From the human T2T-CHM13v2.0 reference genome, Homo sapiens: 64,000 nt of DNA. Positions 2,500 to 11,899 of the stretch are shown here, piece after piece. A model generated the notes under the pieces. It did no database searches. It saw nothing but the letters and a program-made list of their open reading frames with translations, and had not been told where the DNA came from. Both the position numbers and the translations under genes were made by a program. The stretch lies in NCBI RefSeq assembly GCF_009914755.1, contig NC_060926.1; one strand, written 5' to 3'. Position 1 is the stretch's first letter. The number at the start of each line of letters is the position of its first letter.

Positions 2500-4020
<1,521 letters not shown>

Positions 4021-4025
4021 AAGGG

Positions 4026-6012
4026 AAATTTTGGGAGTAATATCACCTCTCCCCATGTGGTTATTAAGGACAAAATGCCAGGGTGGCTGTACAGTTCCTA
4101 CGTTGTTGGCAGTAATATCATCCACTCACCCTCTGGATATGAGGAACCACATCACAGAAGAGGTGTACACCCCCTTCGATATTGTCAGCAATGTCATCCT
4201 CTTCCCTCCTGGATATTAGGAACAATACCCCGGGGTTGGGGGCAGTGTATACCCACTGCGATATGGAAAGTAATATCAGCCTCTTTCCCACTGGATATTA
4301 GGAACTATATCACGTGTGTGTGTGCACCTTCTGGGATATTGGGAGTAATATCAGCTTCTACCCCGCTGCATATTAGGAACAATATACGGGGGGCGGGGAG
4401 GGTTACACCCCCTGCGATATTGAGCGTAATATTATTCTCTTTTCCCTGTGCATTAGGAACTATATCACAGGGGTCTGTACACCTTCTGCGATATTGGGAT
4501 TAACGTTATCCTCTCCCTCATTGAATATCAAAAACAATATCACAGAAGGGTGTACACCCCCTGTGATATGGCCAGTAATATCATCGTCTCTACCTTTAAA
4601 TACTAGGAACAACATCACAGAGGGTGTCTACACCCCCTGCGATATTGGGCATAATGTTATCCTCTCTTCCCCTGGTTATTAGGAACAGTATCCCTGGTGG
4701 GGGGAGGTGGAGTACATTAAGAACATCACTGGGTGGGTGTACACCCTCTGCGATATTGGGTGTATTATCCTCTGTTTCCCAGGATATTAAGAACAATATC
4801 ACAGGAGGGGTGTACAGCCCCTGCGTTTTTGGGAGTAATAGCATCCTCTCCCCCTCTCGATACAAGGAACAATATCCCAGGGTGGGTGTACATCCCCTGC
4901 GCTACTGGGCGTAATGTCATCGTCTCCCAACGTGGATATTGGGAATAATGTCACAGGGGGGTGTTCACCGTCTTCGATATTAGGAGTAATATCATCCTCT
5001 CCCCTCAGGATTGTAGGCAAAATATCGAAAGGGTTTTACAACTAGTGCGATATTGGCAGTAATATCATCCTCCTCCAACCTAGATATTAGGAACTTTATC
5101 ACAGGTGGCTGTACACTTCTTGCCATATTGGGAGTAATATCATCCTCTCCCATCATGGATATTAAGAACAATATTACAAAGGAGGTGTACACCCCCTGCA
5201 ATATTGAGAGTAATATTATGCTCTCCCCTTCGGGATATCAGGAACAATATCGCAGGAGGTGTGTACAACCCCTGTGATATTGGGAGTAATATCATCCTCT
5301 CCCCCTGAATAGAAGAAACAATATCACAGGAGGATGTACACCCCCTGCCATATTGGGAGTCCTATCGTTTTCTCCCCCTCTGGATATTCGGAACAATATC
5401 ACGGTGGGTGTGTACACCCCCTGCGATATTGCCGCTAGTTGTTTCATCGTCTCCCTCCCAGCATATCCCCAGCATATCAGGAACAATATCACAAGGGGGT
5501 GTACACCCCCTGCGATATTGGGGGTAATATCTTCCTCTCCGCCACTGGCTATTGGGAACAATGTCACAGAAGGGGTGTACACCCCCGGCTCTATTGGGAG
5601 TGATATCATTCTCTCTGTCCCTGGATATTAGGAACAATGTCGCTAGGGAATGTACACCTCCTGCAATAGGGAGACTGATATCATCCTCTCGCCCCCTGGA
5701 TATTAGGAACAATATCACAGGGTTGGTGTACACCCCCTGCGAAATCGGAAGAAATATCACCCTCTCCACCTTTGGATGTTAGGGACAATATCACGGGGAG
5801 GTCTACGCCCCTGGGATATTGGGAGTCGTATCATCCTCTCCCACCCAGGATATTAGGAACAAGATGACGGAAGGGATGTACACCCACTGCGATATTCTCA
5901 ATAATGTCATCCTCTACCCCCTGGCTATTAGGAATAACATCATAGAGGGGTGTACACTTTCTGCGCTATTGGGAGTAACATCATCCTCTCCCCCCCGGAT
6001 ATCAGGAACAAT
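4026..6012 (+). repeat. SATR1/SATR2-like ~75-bp satellite, left arm (~26-27 monomers)
   Basis: Tandem diverged monomers, consensus approx. GATATTGGGAGTAATATCATCCTCTCCCCCCTGGATATTAGGAACAATATCACAGGGGGGTGTACACCCCCTGC. Confidence 0.9.
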
Positions 6013-6740
6013 TATATTATTATTAATATTAATAGACATAATAAAAATTAATAGTATTCATCGATATTAATAATTACAATAAAGATAGTAATTAATCCGA
6101 TATCAGGAACAATTATATTATTAATATTAATAGACATAATAAAAATTAATAGTATTCATCGATATTAATAATTACAATAAAGATAGTAATCCTGGTTAAA
6201 AATATTAACCATTAGTATTAATAATTAATAGTAATATCACTATTAATAAAATGATGATACCGGTAATTAATGTTACTTAAATCAATAATAAGTCATCAAA
6301 ATAATTTGATAAATTATTAATAAATTAATTTTCAATATATTTTTAATAAAATTTTATATAAGTATAAATAATTAATGTTTATTAATTATTTATAAATAAT
6401 TAATGTTTATTAATTATTTATAAATAATTAATATTTATCAATTATTAATAAATATTATAATTAAAAATATGAATTATACTATATAATATATTATATATTA
6501 TTGATTTATAAATAATTAATATTCATTAATTATTAAGGGATAATAATTAATAAATTAATAAATTAATTAAGATTAATAACTGATATTACTGATAAATGAC
6601 ATTAATATCAATAATTAATTTTAATCGTGCATGATCGTATATTTAAAATAATTATCGATATTTAATAATGTTACACTATTAATATTAACGTTGATAATTA
6701 CTACTAAAATTGATAACTGGTGTTTAATAATTGATACTAT
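6013..6740. repeat. Extremely AT-rich low-complexity core between the inverted satellite arms
   Basis: Almost only A/T with many ATTAAT/AATATT dyads. Contains a ~95-bp duplication and a 28-bp x3 tandem repeat. Confidence 0.92.
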
Positions 6741-9357
6741 TATTACTCCTAATACCGCAGGGGGTGTACACCAACCTGTGATATTGTTCCTAATATCCAG
6801 GGACGGAGAGCATGATTTTTAGTTTTAATATCGCAGTAGGTGTGCATTCACCCTGTGACATTGATCCTAATATCCAGGGGGTAGAGTATGACATGACTCC
6901 CAACATAGCAATGAATGTACAGCCACCCGGTGATACTGCTCCTAATATTCACGGAAGAAGCGTATGCTATTATTCCCAATATAGCAGGGAGTGTACACCT
7001 CTTCTGTGATATTGTTCCTAGTATCCGGAGGGGGAGAGGATGATAATAATTCCAGTATCGCAGGCTGTGTTCACCCGCCCTGTGATATTGTTATTAATAT
7101 CCTGGAAGGGAGAGGATGATATTACTCCCCATAGAACAGGAGGTGTACATCCACCGTGGGTTATTGTTCCTAATCTCCATGGAGGGGAGAGGCTGATATT
7201 ACTCCCAATATGGCAGGGGGTGTACATCCACCCTGTGATATTGTTCTTAATATTCAAAGGCCGAGAGGTTGATATTACTCCCAATATCGCAGAAAGTGTA
7301 CACTCCCGTGTGATACTGTTCCTGATATCCAGAAAGGGAGAAGATGATATTCATCCCCACATCGCAGGAGGTGAACACCCACTCTGTGATATCTTTCCTA
7401 ATATGCAAGGGGAGAGAGGATAATATTATTCCCAATACTGCAGAAGATGTACACGCCCCCCCCCCCGCCCCGTGATATTGTCCTTAATATCCTTCTCTGC
7501 CCCAGGCAGAGAAGATGATATCGCAGAAAGTGTACACCCTCCAGTGATACTGTGACCATGATCCAGAAGGGAAGAGGATGATACTACTTTCAATGTCGCA
7601 GGGGGTGTACACGCCCCCAGTGATAATGTTCCTAATTTCCACGTGGGAGAGGCTGAGTTTACTCCCAATATCGCAGGGGTTATATACACTCCTTCGATAT
7701 TGTTCCTAATATCGGGGGGGAGGAGAGGATGATATTCCTCCCTGTATTGTAGAGGGTGTACATCCGTCTTTGATATTGTTCGTAATTTCTAGACGGGGAG
7801 ATGACATTACTCACAAAATCGTAAACATGCTGTGTGTCCAACGTGGATCCTAATCCAGGGAGGGATATTATTCCCCATATCGCGGGGGTTGTCCACCCCT
7901 CCTGTCATATTGTTTCTTATGTCCAGGGAGGAGAGGATGATATTGCTACCAATATCGAAGAAGTGTACACGCCCCCTGTGATATGGTTCCTAATATCCAC
8001 GTTGGGAGAGGATGATATTACTCTCGATATCACAGGGGTTGTACACCCCGCCTGTGAATTTTTCCTACTATCCAGAATAAGAGAGAATGATATTATTCCG
8101 AATAGTGCAGGGGGAGCACTCCCCACCCCCCATGGGATATTGTTCTCAAGAGCTAAAGGAAGAGAAGATCATATTACTCTTTGTACTGCAGGGGGTGTAC
8201 ACCCACCTGTGATACTGTTCCTGTTATCCAGGGAGCGAGAGCATGATATTACCCCCAATATCGCCGTGGGTGTTCACCCACTTTGTGATATTGCTCCTAA
8301 TATCCATGGGGTAGTGTATGACATTACTCCCAATATAACAGTGGGTGTACATTCACCCGGCGATATTGCTCCTAATATTCAGGGAAGGCGAAAATGATAT
8401 TACTCCCCAAATCGCAGACAGTGTACAACCCTTCTGTGATATTGCTCCTAATATCCGGAGGGGGAGAGGACGATATTACTTTCAATATCGCAGGTTGTGT
8501 ACACCCACCCTGCGATATTGTTCCTACAATCCAGGAAGGGAGAGGACGGTTTTGCTTTCCATAGAGTAGGAGGTGTACACCCACGCTAGGATTTTGTTCC
8601 TAATATCAAGGTGGGGAGAGCGTAATATTACTCCCAATATGGCAGGGGGTGTACATCCCCCCTGAGATATTGTTCTTGCCATTCAAAACAGGAGAGGATG
8701 ACATTACTCCAGATATCGAAGAAAGTGTGATATTGTTTCTAATATCCAGAAAGGAAGAAAAGGATATTAATTCCCGTATCGCAGGAGGTGTACACTCACT
8801 CTGATATTTTTCGAAATATGCAGGGGGGAAAGAGGATAATAGTATTCCCAATATCGCAAGGGTTGTACACCCCCGTGTGAGACGATGGTCCTTAATAATA
8901 TCCCAAGGCGGAGGGGATGATATTACCACATATATCGCAGAAAGTGTACACCCCCCAGGGATATAATTTCCATGATCCTGGAGGGAAGATGATATTACTT
9001 TAAATATCACAGAAGGTGTACACGCCCCCCGTGATATTGTTTCTAATTTCAACGTGGGAGAGCAGGATATGACACACAATATCGCAGGGAGTAGAACCAC
9101 TCCTGTGATACTGTTCTTAATATTCAGGGAGGAAGAGGATGATATTGCTCTCAATACAGAGGGGTGTACACCCTCTGTACAACGAGGGTGTACACCCGTC
9201 TGTGAAATAGTTCATAATTTCCAGAGGGAGAGATGATATTACTCACAACATCGTAAACAGGCAGTGAGTCCACCATGGCTCCTAAGAGCCAGGGGGGGAG
9301 AGGGGGTGGCTCTTAGTCCCCGCATCGCGGGGGGTGCCTCACCCTCCTGCGTTGTGG
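6741..9357 (-). repeat. SATR1/SATR2-like ~75-bp satellite, right arm (~34-35 monomers), inverted relative to left arm
   Basis: Monomers read GTGATATTGTTCCTAATATCCAGGGGGAGAGGATGATATTACTCCCAATATCGCAGGGGGTGTACACCC, the reverse complement of the left-arm unit. Confidence 0.9.
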
Positions 9358-11899
9358 ATTTTATTTTGTTAGTTGTTTTTTATGCGTAATTGAGGCAAAA
9401 TAGAACAAAGTGTTGAGACTTAATTCAATCTCTTTTTTTTAATGAAGGAGCTCACAGGTTGTTGGTGGAATGACTGACCTATGTCAAACGTTTATCGTTT
9501 ATTTTATCATGCCCATCCATAACTGAGAATATAATGGGCAAAAATAAGGTTATTTATTGATATAGGTGAAATAACTCAATGAAACCCCCCATACAAATTG
9601 ACATTTTTTCTTAATTATGCTGAAGAATATAGCTAACAAAACACTGCTCAGAATTTTTTGTATTAGGAAGCTCCAAGTCAGTTTGTATCTCTTGAGCCAT
9701 AAGCAGTGAAGTTAAATTTACCTTAACTTGTGATTCAAAAACAACAGAAATCTCTAGCTTATTGAGTTTTAGAAATACAATTCAACAGTGAAACAGCAGA
9801 TTCTTTCATTTTGTATTTATGTAGACTGTCATCCCAGGTCATTATAAAATAACAATTTTATTTATTTATGCTATTATTTTTATTTGCCTTGATTATTATT
9901 GTTTAGAAATGTGATTTTTATTTTTCCCCGAAGTTCATATCTAATGTCTTTTTTTTTCTGCCTACACAAATCAGTTGCAACTTCTTAGTCATAAACTATA
10001 CCTCTGATTTTGGTGATTGCTGTGTGCATGGTGTCAGACTCCTCACAAGAGGGTTCTCAATGAACAATGCGTCATGACAGCTTATCAGCTCAATAGGAAA
10101 GAAAACAAATAGGCACAATACAGGTTTTTAAACTGTATTGAACAGGCTTTAATACTGAGTTATTATGAAACAAACGCCTCATTTTATTTACCAGGAAATT
10201 AGATAAGAAATGTCAAACAGGTAGCTTGTCTTCTAGCATGATTTGTATCAATGCATTTTATCTGAAATGAGCAAAACTCCTTCCTGTGTATTGTATATTT
10301 TCATTATGGTGTTGATTTTTCTAACATTTTAAAATCTTGTTTCTAAACAACACAACCCCACTGTTAATAAGGATATTGTGCAAAAGATAGTAAATTCAGT
10401 AGGTTTAATATTCTTTATGATTAGTGCTGCCCAGTTTTGCTCCTAAGATAAACTTAAATCTAGTCATTTGATGCCAAACATCAATAAGATGATATTCAGA
10501 TAGGTACAGCTGAAGTATACAATTCATGCAGTAAAGGAGATTACTAAATTACTAAGGGAAGCAGGTAGATACGTATAAGTTAGACCCAGTCTTCCTTGTA
10601 TATATTTCATTTAGTGATATGTGAAGAGAACGTAGTAATCCATGCTGTCAGTCATATATCTAAATTTACTAATGTGATGTATATAAAGCCATCAAAAATG
10701 CTTTAAATGACAGAAAATACTTCCCAAATGGAACACAGATAATTCCTTCCAGCACAACATCCTTTTGAGAAGCATCTTGCACCAGCATCCCTCCAATATC
10801 AGGATATTAATTCAAATGCCATAGCAGAAAAAAATGCAAATTTTAGAAGTGGATCTCAAAGCTTCGTGCACTTCCTAGACACTGACTGCACATTTTTCTA
10901 TGCATTTGCTTGTGTTTGGTACTTAATTTGTGTTGTCTCTTTTCCCATACCACACATGAAAATTATATCCACCATTAAAAAAGATAAAGAAGATTTTATC
11001 TAGATAAATAAGACCAAGGAAATGCTGCTTTGGGTTTATAGATTAGATATGGATGCCAAAATTGGAGGTTGCAAGAGACAAGAAGAGAGACAACGTATAG
11101 ATAACAACTCAGTCAAAATGAAAGGTTTCCAGATATACACTACACATGACAGTGATGGCAGTTCCACAAAGGCTTCAACAATTCAGATTTGTCATCTCAG
11201 TGTATCTTCAATGTAGTGTAGCTTTTGTTCTTGTGTTCTAAGATGAAAAGGAGTAAGAATGCTATGCCTCCTTACTTCAAAAAGAATTCCCAGGAGTAAC
11301 ACTAAAGGATGTATAGGTAAATGTTTATTTCAAAATTTATTGTATGATTGGTACTTACTGTTTACTTAATGTTTATATTGACATCTCTAGTTCTGAAAAG
11401 ATAAATGATTGCAAGTTTATTTGCTAATAAATAGTGTCATTTGTAATTTCTTTTTCTCTTACATTCAAGGAGTTAAAATGAAACCTAGGACTCTACTGTA
11501 ATGCTTATTGAGAGATACTGTCTCTTTAAAGGAGACTACTTTGGGTCCCTGGTGTAATGTATTTAGAAGAAAATATTTATCAATACAAAACTTGTTTTTG
11601 TTCTAACTCCCCTCTCAAATAAAACAATTTTTTCAGGCTGAATAGAATAAAATAACATTGGCAATGGCAAAGACGTGGCGAAACTGCTCTAAAAGATTGT
11701 CAGAGAGCCTTGTTTCTCTAATTGAATTCAGATAGCCTCACTTTATTATATCTTACTCCAGATACAGCAAAAGCTCAGAGATAGAATGCCTTGTCATTAC
11801 TCTGGATCTATAAGACAATGGTTCAGGAAAGCATTTGAAGATTGGCTTTTTCTATCAGTGAAACTTACGCATAGTGTAGCAGATAGAGTTTGCAAACTA

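What the first reader, a model, noticed from the sequence alone, without database searches (positions are those of the whole stretch)
9276..9357. Terminal GC-rich monomer with compensatory substitutions that keep both hairpins
Seen: the last monomer differs strongly from the consensus, but in a paired way. The standard AATATC...GATATT around the purine tract becomes AAGAGC...GCTCTT, giving a perfect 10-bp inverted repeat CTAAGAGCCA (9282-9291) / TGGCTCTTAG (9307-9316) with a 15-nt G-rich loop. The standard AATATCGCAGGGGGTG-TA-CACCCCCTGTGATATT becomes CCGCATCGCGGGGGGTG-CCT-CACCCTCCTGCGTTGTGG (9320-9357), which is still self-complementary. Inference: this covariation suggests secondary structure (two tandem stem-loops per monomer in ssDNA or RNA) is conserved. 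The cause could be selection or intra-hairpin template switching. The distinct monomer may mark a defined terminus or the start of a second satellite subfamily.
Basis: partly seen in the sequence, partly recalled or inferred. Interest (0 to 1): 0.75.

Follow-up and report, generated by a model that had tools for sequence, protein, structure and literature searches.

The report
GC-rich end unit of SATR1 satellite
The odd last repeat is the first unit of a GC-rich relative of the human SATR1 satellite, cut off here after one copy, and its hairpin-keeping base changes were inherited from that subfamily rather than made at this spot.

Summary
The sequence facts are correct. CTAAGAGCCA (9282-9291) and TGGCTCTTAG (9307-9316) form a perfect 10-bp inverted repeat. 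9320-9357 is a second, imperfect hairpin. Each folds better than all 200 shuffles.

The array is SATR1: a published SATR1 primer matches it. The locus reads inverted SATR1, AT-rich spacer, forward SATR1, then one GC-rich unit. The junction plus GC unit recurs at 39 other genomic places at 83-88% identity, where more GC units usually follow. The unit therefore starts a second subfamily that is truncated here.

Its stem alleles are inherited. The same 8-nt arm pair, differing only at the outermost position, occurs in 27 of 101 sampled GC units. Across subfamilies, about six stem pairs switched on both sides. K-type versus AT-type consensus gives 5 pairs changed on both sides, 1 on one side and 7 unchanged (my arithmetic p about 0.003). 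This covariation rests on a few old events:
- Ordinary SATR1 units show compensation only at chance level.
- Decayed GC copies are uncompensated.
- The relatedness-robust covariation measures are not significant.

I favour arm-to-arm templated mutation in quasi-palindromes over ongoing selection. In the composite, orientation flips occur at the second hairpin.

The parts
4030..6012 (-). Inverted SATR1 array, about 26 units of about 76 bp. Its outer end is cut inside the 5' arm of a hairpin-2 and carries no GC unit.
6013..6740 (.). AT-rich spacer (731 bp, GC 0.13) between the inverted and forward arrays. It is homologous to the 333-395-bp, 12-19% GC spacers at the same place in other loci, and is expanded here by a 98-bp duplication and AT-rich repeats.
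6741..9275 (+). Forward SATR1 array, about 35 units. It contains an old 1431-bp duplication (6741-7904 against 8172-9349, 75.8% over 1216 columns).
7846..7904 (+). Internal paralog of the terminal unit: the last unit of the first 1431-bp copy. It is an intermediate or decayed GC-type unit that keeps the TCCCC linker and the CGCGGGGG run. It folds no better than shuffles (z -0.46).
9210..9275 (+). Degenerate 'junction unit' that precedes the GC block in all 31 aligned junction copies.
9276..9357 (+). Terminal GC-rich unit (K-type). It is the first and here the only unit of the GC-rich SATR block. Homology to other loci stops at 9357-9363.
9282..9316 (+). Hairpin 1: arms 9282-9291 and 9307-9316 (10 bp, perfect) around the purine loop 9292-9306.
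9320..9357 (+). Hairpin 2: arms 9320-9336 and 9340-9357 with loop CCT. It has 16 pairs, one mismatch and one bulge.
9276..9291 (+). Competing small hairpin TGGCTC/GAGCCA with loop CTAA, created by a private A>C change at 9279.
9358..9500 (.). Non-satellite flank. The monomer HMM finds no SATR unit anywhere else in the window.

Best explanation
Window 4030-9357 is one diverged copy of the composite SATR satellite: inverted SATR1, AT-rich spacer, forward SATR1, then a GC-rich block. The finding is the first unit of that GC-rich block. The copy breaks off after this one unit, one step before the point where other copies flip orientation.

The two hairpins and their 'compensated' arms are inherited from the K-type GC subfamily. 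They were not made here.

At family level, the GC-block subfamilies (stem alleles H, I, J and K) differ from SATR1 and from each other by a small number of old changes that hit both arms of a hairpin in a complementary way. I infer that most of these arose by templated, arm-to-arm mutation in quasi-palindromes. That means intrastrand template switching, or correction within a hairpin, during replication. After that the units decayed neutrally.

Shown: identity, architecture, inheritance of the arms, concordance of the arm changes, and absence of ongoing compensation. Inferred: the templated mechanism.
For: Identity:
- TRF finds a 76-bp period.
- The published SATR1_L primer (PMC3606032, supplementary file 3) matches the arrays 12 times at 2 or fewer mismatches, with 0 expected.

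Architecture:
- The unit maps of the window and 20 other loci show the recurring order forward AT-type units, GC units, inverted units, about 385-bp AT spacer.
- The window's spacer is homologous to those spacers: 80% over 195 columns and 74.7% over 190 columns.

Inheritance:
- The 35-mer has 13 other hits at 3 or fewer mismatches, against 0 for the reversed control.
- The 128-nt junction is full length at 39 other places at 83-88% identity.
- The arms CTAAGAGC/GCTCTTAC occur in 27 of 101 unique GC units.

Concordance of arm changes:
- Of 13 A:T pairs in the SATR1 consensus, the K consensus has 5 changed on both sides (4 to the complementary pair), 1 on one side (to G.T) and 7 unchanged. Placing 11 changes at random on 26 sites gives so few singletons with p = 20592/7726160 = 0.0027 (my arithmetic).
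- Cells with a change on both sides: 187 against 119.7 +/- 8.1 in shuffles (0/500). Covariation score 0.187 against 0.049-0.097 when partners are slid. The 35 GC representatives behave likewise.

Pointers to templating:
- In K the 3' arm CTGGCTCT is a contiguous rewrite, including one inserted base. It makes it the exact complement of the 5' arm and adds three inner pairs.

No ongoing constraint:
-.
Against: - The direction of change (AT to GC or the reverse) is not polarised, because no outgroup species was available.
- Stepwise intermediates exist, including the I-type with one switched pair and GTCATATC/GATATTAC with one side changed (4 units). Three subfamily-level one-sided changes are all G.T wobbles. 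This pattern is what selection on point mutations would give, and a one-step templated event would not.
- Units that combine a K 5' arm with an H or J 3' arm (3 of 101) could be recombinants rather than intermediates.
- The T-A/C-G switch next to the hairpin-2 loop can arise from CpG decay in both arms without any coupling.
- The relatedness-robust measures are not significant.
Confidence: 0.6

Rival explanations
1. The two stem-loops are a selected structure in single-stranded DNA, a cruciform or a transcript. The paired substitutions are classic compensatory evolution under that constraint.
For: - Arm changes are concordant.
- All three one-sided subfamily-level changes keep pairing as G.T.
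- GC-type units fold far better than shuffles. The K unit L009:5124-5204 gives -29.9 kcal/mol, z -5.7.
- GC units hold a fixed place at 3' array ends and next to the orientation flip.
- One paper states that hsa-mir-3683 derives from SATR1 (PMC3059204, passage).
Against: - In AT-type units, double changes are paired 59 times and broken 95 times (38%, the chance level), with 1042 one-sided breaks.
- G.T does not exceed A.C on the purine-loop strand: 194 against 262 among representatives.
- 8-10 loci share an uncompensated AAAAACC version of the K arm.
- Window AT-type units fold like shuffles, z -0.07 to -1.3.
- No Rfam family reaches threshold.
- The robust covariation measures are not significant.
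Confidence: 0.2
2. One reading: the compensations arose in this very monomer, which marks a defined terminus of the array.
For: - The exact 35-mer is unique in the genome.
- The outermost C-G pair, made by G at 9316, is seen in only 1 of the 20 aligned K-type junction copies.
- This arm combination occurs in no other of the 101 sampled GC units.
- Against its closest paralog on chr9 (L014, 86.8% over 1205 columns), hairpin 1 differs by two fully compensated pairs.
Against: - All other arm states are those of the K subfamily. Descent from, or conversion by, a K-type unit therefore explains the differences from L014 at once.
- Private changes are mixed: 9316 gains a pair, 9306 loses one, 9345 and 9352 weaken hairpin 2.
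- The mirror array's outer end has no such unit.
- In other loci the block continues beyond this unit.
Confidence: 0.05
3. There is no coupling between arms. A regional AT-to-GC drive (biased gene conversion or mutation bias), together with CpG decay, changed both arms independently. Because the arms are the same sequence read on opposite strands, the same hotspots were hit.
For: - Every subfamily-defining change is AT to GC.
- 5 of 8 unpaired A/T columns changed as well.
- The T-A/C-G switch beside the hairpin-2 loop lies in CpG context on both arms.
Against: - The concordance of 5 both, 1 one, 7 none has p about 0.003 under independent placement (my arithmetic).
- The hairpin-1 switches are transversions outside CpG.
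- The K 3' arm also gained an inserted base that extends the stem.
Confidence: 0.1
4. The arms were made alike by gene conversion or recombination between units lying in opposite orientation. Forward and inverted arrays are neighbours in the composite, so conversion could act between molecules or arrays and not within one hairpin.
For: - Forward and inverted arrays adjoin the GC block.
- The monomer HMM gives weaker reverse-strand hits over hairpin 2 throughout the arrays, so antiparallel pairing of units is possible.
- Chimeric units exist.
Against: - Hairpin-1 arms of GC units have no close antiparallel partner in the neighbouring inverted AT-type units.
- I ran no direct test.
Confidence: 0.1

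Closest known systems
SATR1 satellite, with SATR2, of the Xiao/DA core-duplicon flanks
   Same: - 76-bp unit.
- Matches the published SATR1 primer.
- Related copies lie at chr8 7.69 and 12.96 Mb, chr4 about 9.5 Mb, chr3 about 75.7 Mb, chr7 about 7 Mb, chr12 about 8.4 Mb and elsewhere. This is the kind of place where SATR1-SATR2 are reported to flank Xiao elements and SD breakpoints (PMC5088589 passages; PMC2700803 passage).
   Different: This chr2 copy stands alone in a window with no annotated gene and is truncated on both sides. I could not tell which part RepeatMasker names SATR2: the GC block, or the spacers of about 333-395 bp. No Dfam or Repbase model was on hand.
SATR1v (GC-rich SATR1 variant) mixed arrays in macaque T2T (preprint 10.1101/2025.08.04.668424); SATR1 variant of T2T-CHM13 (10.1101/2021.07.12.451456)
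   Same: The reported core unit is GC-rich variant array, inverted SATR1, AT-rich repeat, forward SATR1 (passages). The window and the 20 loci show the same order of parts.
   Different: The reported SATR1v GC content is 81%. The unit here is about 65% GC. Reported sizes (589-bp inverted, 191-bp forward) differ from those here. Neither paper, in the passages I saw, mentions hairpins within a unit or paired substitutions. The preprint's supplements could not be read.
Template-switch / quasi-palindrome mutation (PMC5453318, PMC8794818, PMC3820800; search listing and start of abstracts only)
   Same: Clustered changes that raise or keep complementarity between the arms of an imperfect inverted repeat, including an indel that lengthens the stem.
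   Different: Here the process is inferred from subfamily consensus sequences of a satellite, not from polarised ancestral reconstructions. Stepwise wobble intermediates also occur.
Dyad-symmetric satellite units in general (recalled, no call)
   Same: Tandem units carrying short inverted repeats able to form hairpins or cruciforms.
   Different: I tested no centromeric role or protein binding. This is an interstitial array.

Membership tests
SATR1 satellite | Tandem unit of about 76 bp | tested here: met
   TRF gives a 76-bp period, with 152- and 228-bp multiples, at 6741-9173. HMM tiling agrees.
SATR1 satellite | Sequence match to the SATR1 consensus | tested here: met
   The primer SATR1_L, designed on the SATR1 consensus (PMC3606032, supplementary file 3), matches 12 sites at 2 or fewer mismatches with 0 expected. 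By eye it equals the HMM consensus across the unit boundary.
SATR1 satellite | Match to the Dfam/Repbase model (RepeatMasker call) | not testable with these tools
   No repeat library is on hand.
GC-rich SATR block (SATR1 variant or SATR2) | GC-rich units in mixed arrays with SATR1, in a fixed order with inverted SATR1 and an AT-rich spacer | tested here: met
   Unit maps of 21 sources. 41 of 71 3' ends of SATR1 runs adjoin a GC unit, against 4 of 72 5' ends. Spacers are homologous.
GC-rich SATR block (SATR1 variant or SATR2) | GC content as published for SATR1v (mean 81%) | tested here: not met
   GC is 0.65 at 9250-9349. The name SATR1v is therefore not asserted for this unit.
GC-rich SATR block (SATR1 variant or SATR2) | Match to the curated model | not testable with these tools
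   No Dfam model is on hand. The preprint's supplements are unreadable.
Conserved nucleic-acid secondary structure (covariation-supported) | More compensated pairs than relatedness alone explains | tested here: inconclusive
   Cell-based measures beat all 500 shuffles and the slid controls. Pairs with a change on both sides (25 against 23.7; 10 against 8.2) and further pair types do not.
Conserved nucleic-acid secondary structure (covariation-supported) | Ongoing compensation within a subfamily | tested here: not met
   AT-type double changes are 59 paired against 95 broken. K-type deviations are one-sided. Window against paralog: 44 one-sided changes show no trend.
Known RNA family / miRNA precursor | Rfam covariance-model match at the gathering score | tested here: not met
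   No hit at gathering in 4 loci. In the window the best hit over the unit is FinP, 23.2 bits against a gathering score of 45, E 0.36.
Template-switch (quasi-palindrome) mutation | Clustered changes in one arm that equal the reverse complement of the other arm, indels included | tested here: met
   The K-type 3' arm is a contiguous rewrite with one inserted base, complementary to the 5' arm.
Template-switch (quasi-palindrome) mutation | A single event on one branch, polarised by an outgroup | not testable with these tools
   Only the human genome is held.

The most novel reading that the evidence does not exclude
The hairpins inside SATR units are active cis-elements. The strongly folding GC-type units, and above all the hairpin-2 palindrome, would act as the hinge at which replication folds back. 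That fold-back would create the forward/inverted SATR architecture and seed the breakpoints of the Xiao/DA segmental duplications and the 8p23.1 rearrangements. On this reading the paired arm substitutions are the footprint of repeated fold-back synthesis at these sites.
Probability: 0.15. Interest if true: 0.7.

Novelty: new member of a known kind. Interest (0 to 1): 0.35.

Why it matters
The element itself is a known human satellite, so the locus is ordinary. Two things go beyond the papers I could search.

1. SATR units carry two hairpins whose arms changed together between subfamilies. This is a clean natural example of quasi-palindrome maintenance in a satellite.
2. In the composite, the orientation flip runs through the hairpin-2 palindrome next to the GC block.

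SATR1-SATR2 are reported at breakpoints of large duplications and inversions (PMC5088589). A hairpin-prone hinge there gives a concrete, testable mechanism for that instability.

Tried and rejected
- Rfam scans: only sub-threshold chance-level hits (mir-2147, mir-2944, STnc310, FinP) and none at gathering in four related loci. A known RNA family is rejected.
- Strand-specific structure: I tested it through G.T against A.C counts and found no excess on the purine-loop strand.
- In-situ compensation in this unit: rejected from the private-change list.
- My first script to find the flip axis found nothing above its score threshold, because its scoring was too strict. A gapped self-alignment gave unstable centres. 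I then used the printed sequences by eye and the hit gaps.
- Supplements of the macaque preprint, which might hold SATR1v or SATR2 consensus sequences, could not be read. Its reference list is not held.
- Literature: 'SATR1' with 'hairpin' gives 3 papers. 'SATR1' with 'palindrom' gives 4 papers. None describes hairpins within a unit or paired substitutions, and 'palindromic' there refers to whole arrays.
- A Helitron-like terminal hairpin and a tRNA-sized origin of the 76-nt unit were considered from memory only and dropped without a test.
Full report
**1. The observation**

The letters and coordinates are as reported.
- CTAAGAGCCA (9282-9291) and TGGCTCTTAG (9307-9316) are a perfect 10-bp inverted repeat around a 15-nt purine loop.
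- 9320-9357 is a second, imperfect palindrome.
- Folded alone as single-stranded DNA, the first gives -7.7 kcal/mol (z -3.9) and the second -13.0 kcal/mol (z -3.8). In each case 0 of 200 dinucleotide shuffles fold as well.
- In the whole 85-nt unit the best fold uses a competing 6-bp hairpin (TGGCTC 9276-9281 with GAGCCA 9286-9291), and z is -2.8.
- The unit is a true but divergent copy of the repeat. It scores 28.9 bits against the monomer HMM, where most units score 40-70. GC reaches 0.65 there.

**2. What the array is**

Tandem Repeats Finder gives a 76-bp period over 6741-9173. A primer that a published study designed on the SATR1 consensus (PMC3606032, supplementary file 3) matches the arrays 12 times at 2 or fewer mismatches, with none expected. 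The satellite is therefore SATR1.

The window holds a mirror arrangement:
- about 26 units on the minus strand (4030-6012);
- a 731-bp spacer of 13% GC;
- about 35 units on the plus strand (6741-9275);
- the one GC-rich unit.

The forward array contains an old 1431-bp duplication: 6741-7904 against 8172-9349, 75.8% identity, against 66-72% out of register. No other SATR unit lies in the window.

**3. The GC-rich unit is not a one-off**

- The 35-nt hairpin has 13 other genomic hits at 3 or fewer mismatches, against 0 for the reversed control.
- The 128-nt stretch 9233-9360 (the degenerate junction unit plus the GC unit) is found full length at 39 other places at 83-88% identity. There it is often followed by further hits to the GC unit alone at steps of about 80 bp. 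These counts are lower bounds, since 40 of 216 candidates were scored.
- I fetched 20 of these places at 9 kb each and tiled them with an HMM of the unit. They share a composite order: 12-15 forward AT-type units, 1-4 or more GC units, about 10 inverted units, an AT-rich spacer of 333-395 bp (12-19% GC), then forward units again.
- The window's spacer is homologous to those spacers (80% and 74.7% over its two halves) and is expanded internally.
- Among 73 runs of 5 or more same-strand AT-type units, 41 of 71 non-edge 3' ends adjoin a GC unit, against 4 of 72 5' ends.
- In 31 aligned junction copies, the unit after the junction unit is K-type or its decayed form in 22, J-type in 6 and other GC-type in 2. 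The remaining one is the window's own internal paralog.
- Homology of the window to the other loci stops at 9357-9363.

The window therefore holds one truncated copy of the composite, cut after the first GC unit.

This matches what is in print at the level of architecture.
- SATR1-SATR2 flank Xiao/DA core duplicons (PMC5088589, PMC2700803; passages).
- A macaque T2T preprint describes core units of a GC-rich SATR1 variant, inverted SATR1, an AT-rich repeat and forward SATR1 (passages).
- Which part carries which curated name I could not settle, because no repeat library was available.
- The published 81% GC of SATR1v is not met by this 65% unit.

**4. Where the paired substitutions come from**

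I aligned 101 unique GC-type units (58% GC or more) from the 21 sources. Hairpin 1 occurs in a few stem alleles:
- H: GTAATATC/GATATTAC, 4 units;
- J: GTCATATC/GATATGAC, 11 units;
- I: GTAATAGC/GCTATTAC, 1 exact plus variants;
- K: CTAAGAGC/GCTCTTAC, 27 units. In full, the K stem is a 10-bp stem TAAGAGCCAG/CTGGCTCTTA.

The window's arms are the K arms. Against the consensus of 20 K-type junction copies, its private differences within 9276-9357 are these:
- 9276 C>T;
- 9279 A>C, which makes the competing hairpin;
- two loop positions;
- 9306 C>G, which loses the innermost K pair;
- 9316 C>G, which gains an outer pair and is seen in 1 of the 20 copies;
- 9345 C>T and 9352 A>T, which weaken hairpin 2;
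- 9355 G>T, a state shared with 5 of the 20 copies.

So the 'perfect 10 bp' is the K stem shifted outward by one pair. This copy shows no net compensation of its own.

The closest paralog (chr9:117.99 Mb, locus L014; 86.8% over 1205 columns) has an I-type unit at this place. Over the 15 paired units of the two loci:
- 8 of 306 stem pairs changed on both sides, and 4 of them stay paired. Two of those four lie in hairpin 1 of the terminal unit.
- The 44 one-sided changes show no trend: 15 lose pairing in the window copy, 10 gain it, 10 stay paired and 9 stay unpaired.

Descent from, or conversion by, a K-type unit explains the terminal unit's differences in one step.

**5. Is there covariation at family level?**

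Yes, but it rests on few events.

On 148 representatives (one per cluster of about 90% identity; 35 GC-type and 113 of the 163 AT-type representatives, taken at random), with the two-hairpin structure that I wrote:

| Measure | Observed | Control |
|---|---|---|
| Cells forming a standard pair | 69.7% | 66.4 +/- 0.3 in shuffles (0/500) |
| Cells with a change on both sides | 187 | 119.7 +/- 8.1 (0/500) |
| Covariation score | 0.187 | 0.049-0.097 with partners slid |
| Pairs with a change on both sides | 25 | 23.7 (153/500) |
| Further pair types | 71 | 70.5 (259/500) |

The last two measures are the ones robust to relatedness, and they are not significant. The 35 GC representatives alone behave the same way.

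The signal sits in about six pairs:
- three T-A or A-T to G-C or C-G transversion switches in hairpin 1;
- two A-T/T-A to C-G switches in the outer stem of hairpin 2;
- one T-A/C-G switch beside the hairpin-2 loop, which CpG decay in both arms can produce by itself.

For the K consensus against the AT-type consensus, of 13 A:T pairs, 5 changed on both sides, 1 on one side (to G.T) and 7 not at all. Of 8 unpaired A/T columns, 5 changed. Random placement of 11 changes on 26 sites gives so few singletons with p = 0.0027 (my arithmetic). An AT-to-GC drive without arm coupling is therefore unlikely.

**6. No sign of a standing constraint**

- In 848 unique AT-type units, pairs changed on both sides are paired 59 times and broken 95 times (38%; 6 of the 16 possible base combinations form a pair). 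There are 1042 one-sided breaks in hairpin 1 alone.
- G.T does not exceed A.C on the purine-loop strand: 194 against 262 among representatives.
- Deviations from the K, J and H stems are almost all one-sided. They include an AAAAACC arm shared by 8-10 loci.
- AT-type units of the window fold like their shuffles.

**7. Mechanism**

I favour templated arm-to-arm mutation in quasi-palindromes (confidence about 0.5 for this step).
- The changes are concordant.
- In hairpin 1 they are transversions with no wobble intermediate.
- In K the 3' arm is a contiguous rewrite with one inserted base, which makes it the exact complement of the 5' arm and adds three pairs.
- This is the known signature of template switching (PMC5453318, PMC8794818, PMC3820800; I saw only the search listing and the start of the abstracts).

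Evidence on the other side: stepwise intermediates, and three wobble-compatible one-sided changes. These keep selection on a hairpin alive as a rival (0.2).

**8. A link to the array architecture**

In all 11 orientation flips that lie next to a GC unit in the fetched loci, the stretch between the last forward hit and the first reverse hit is a single hairpin-1 (10 K-type, 1 I-type). In the 7 flips that I printed, the sequence reads linker, hairpin-2 palindrome, reverse-complemented linker (by eye). The axis of the flip is therefore hairpin 2. The window's copy ends one step before that hinge. This fits fold-back synthesis at the palindrome but does not prove it.

**9. Verdict**

It is partly wrong: the compensation did not arise in this unit, and there is no evidence of conserved function. 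The element is a known satellite. In the papers I could search, the hairpin covariation and the hinge are not described.

Noticed in passing
window 6000-6231 and 6298-6619: The AT-rich spacer carries a 98-bp tandem duplication (1.9-2.3 copies) and AT-rich short-period repeats. These make it 731 bp long, against 333-395 bp at the same place in other loci.
   Followed up: partly
window about 4030 and 9357: Both ends of the SATR block fall at a hairpin-2. The left array stops inside a 5' arm (ACTCCCAAAAT, then unique sequence). The right array stops just after a 3' arm. With n = 2 this may be chance.
   Followed up: no
window 9156-9205: One unit holds a local duplication of the hairpin-2 core (GGGTGTACACCC appears twice with a short piece between), giving an over-long unit. 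The same over-long unit is present in L009:4878-4978, so it is old and shared.
   Followed up: no
window 9292-9306: The hairpin-1 loop GGGGGGGAGAGGGGG is a homopurine mirror repeat. Such tracts can form triplex or G-rich structures, which would compete with the hairpin. I did not test this.
   Followed up: no
window 7455-7475: A long C run (about 14 C with one G) replaces the usual C tract in the 3' arm of one hairpin 2.
   Followed up: no
window 3335-3654: An Alu-like element with a long T run (as read on the minus strand) lies about 400 bp outside the left array end. The name comes from the look of the sequence, not from a tool. The stretch is masked in NCBI's file.
   Followed up: no
L002 (G000 chr3:75675732-75678766), around locus position 1300-1600: Three GC-type units stand alone between GC-rich non-satellite sequence and unique sequence, with no AT-type SATR1 beside them. 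GC blocks can therefore occur detached.
   Followed up: no
L009, L012, L013, L015, L016, L019, L021, L025, L026 (first GC unit after the junction unit): A shared AAAAACC (once AAAACCC) version of the K 5' arm carries two G>A changes with an unchanged 3' arm. It is an uncompensated decay inherited by a group of duplicated loci.
   Followed up: partly
window 9278-9362: There is a weak Rfam match to FinP (23.2 bits, gathering score 45, E 0.36). It most likely reflects only the two-stem-loop shape.
   Followed up: yes
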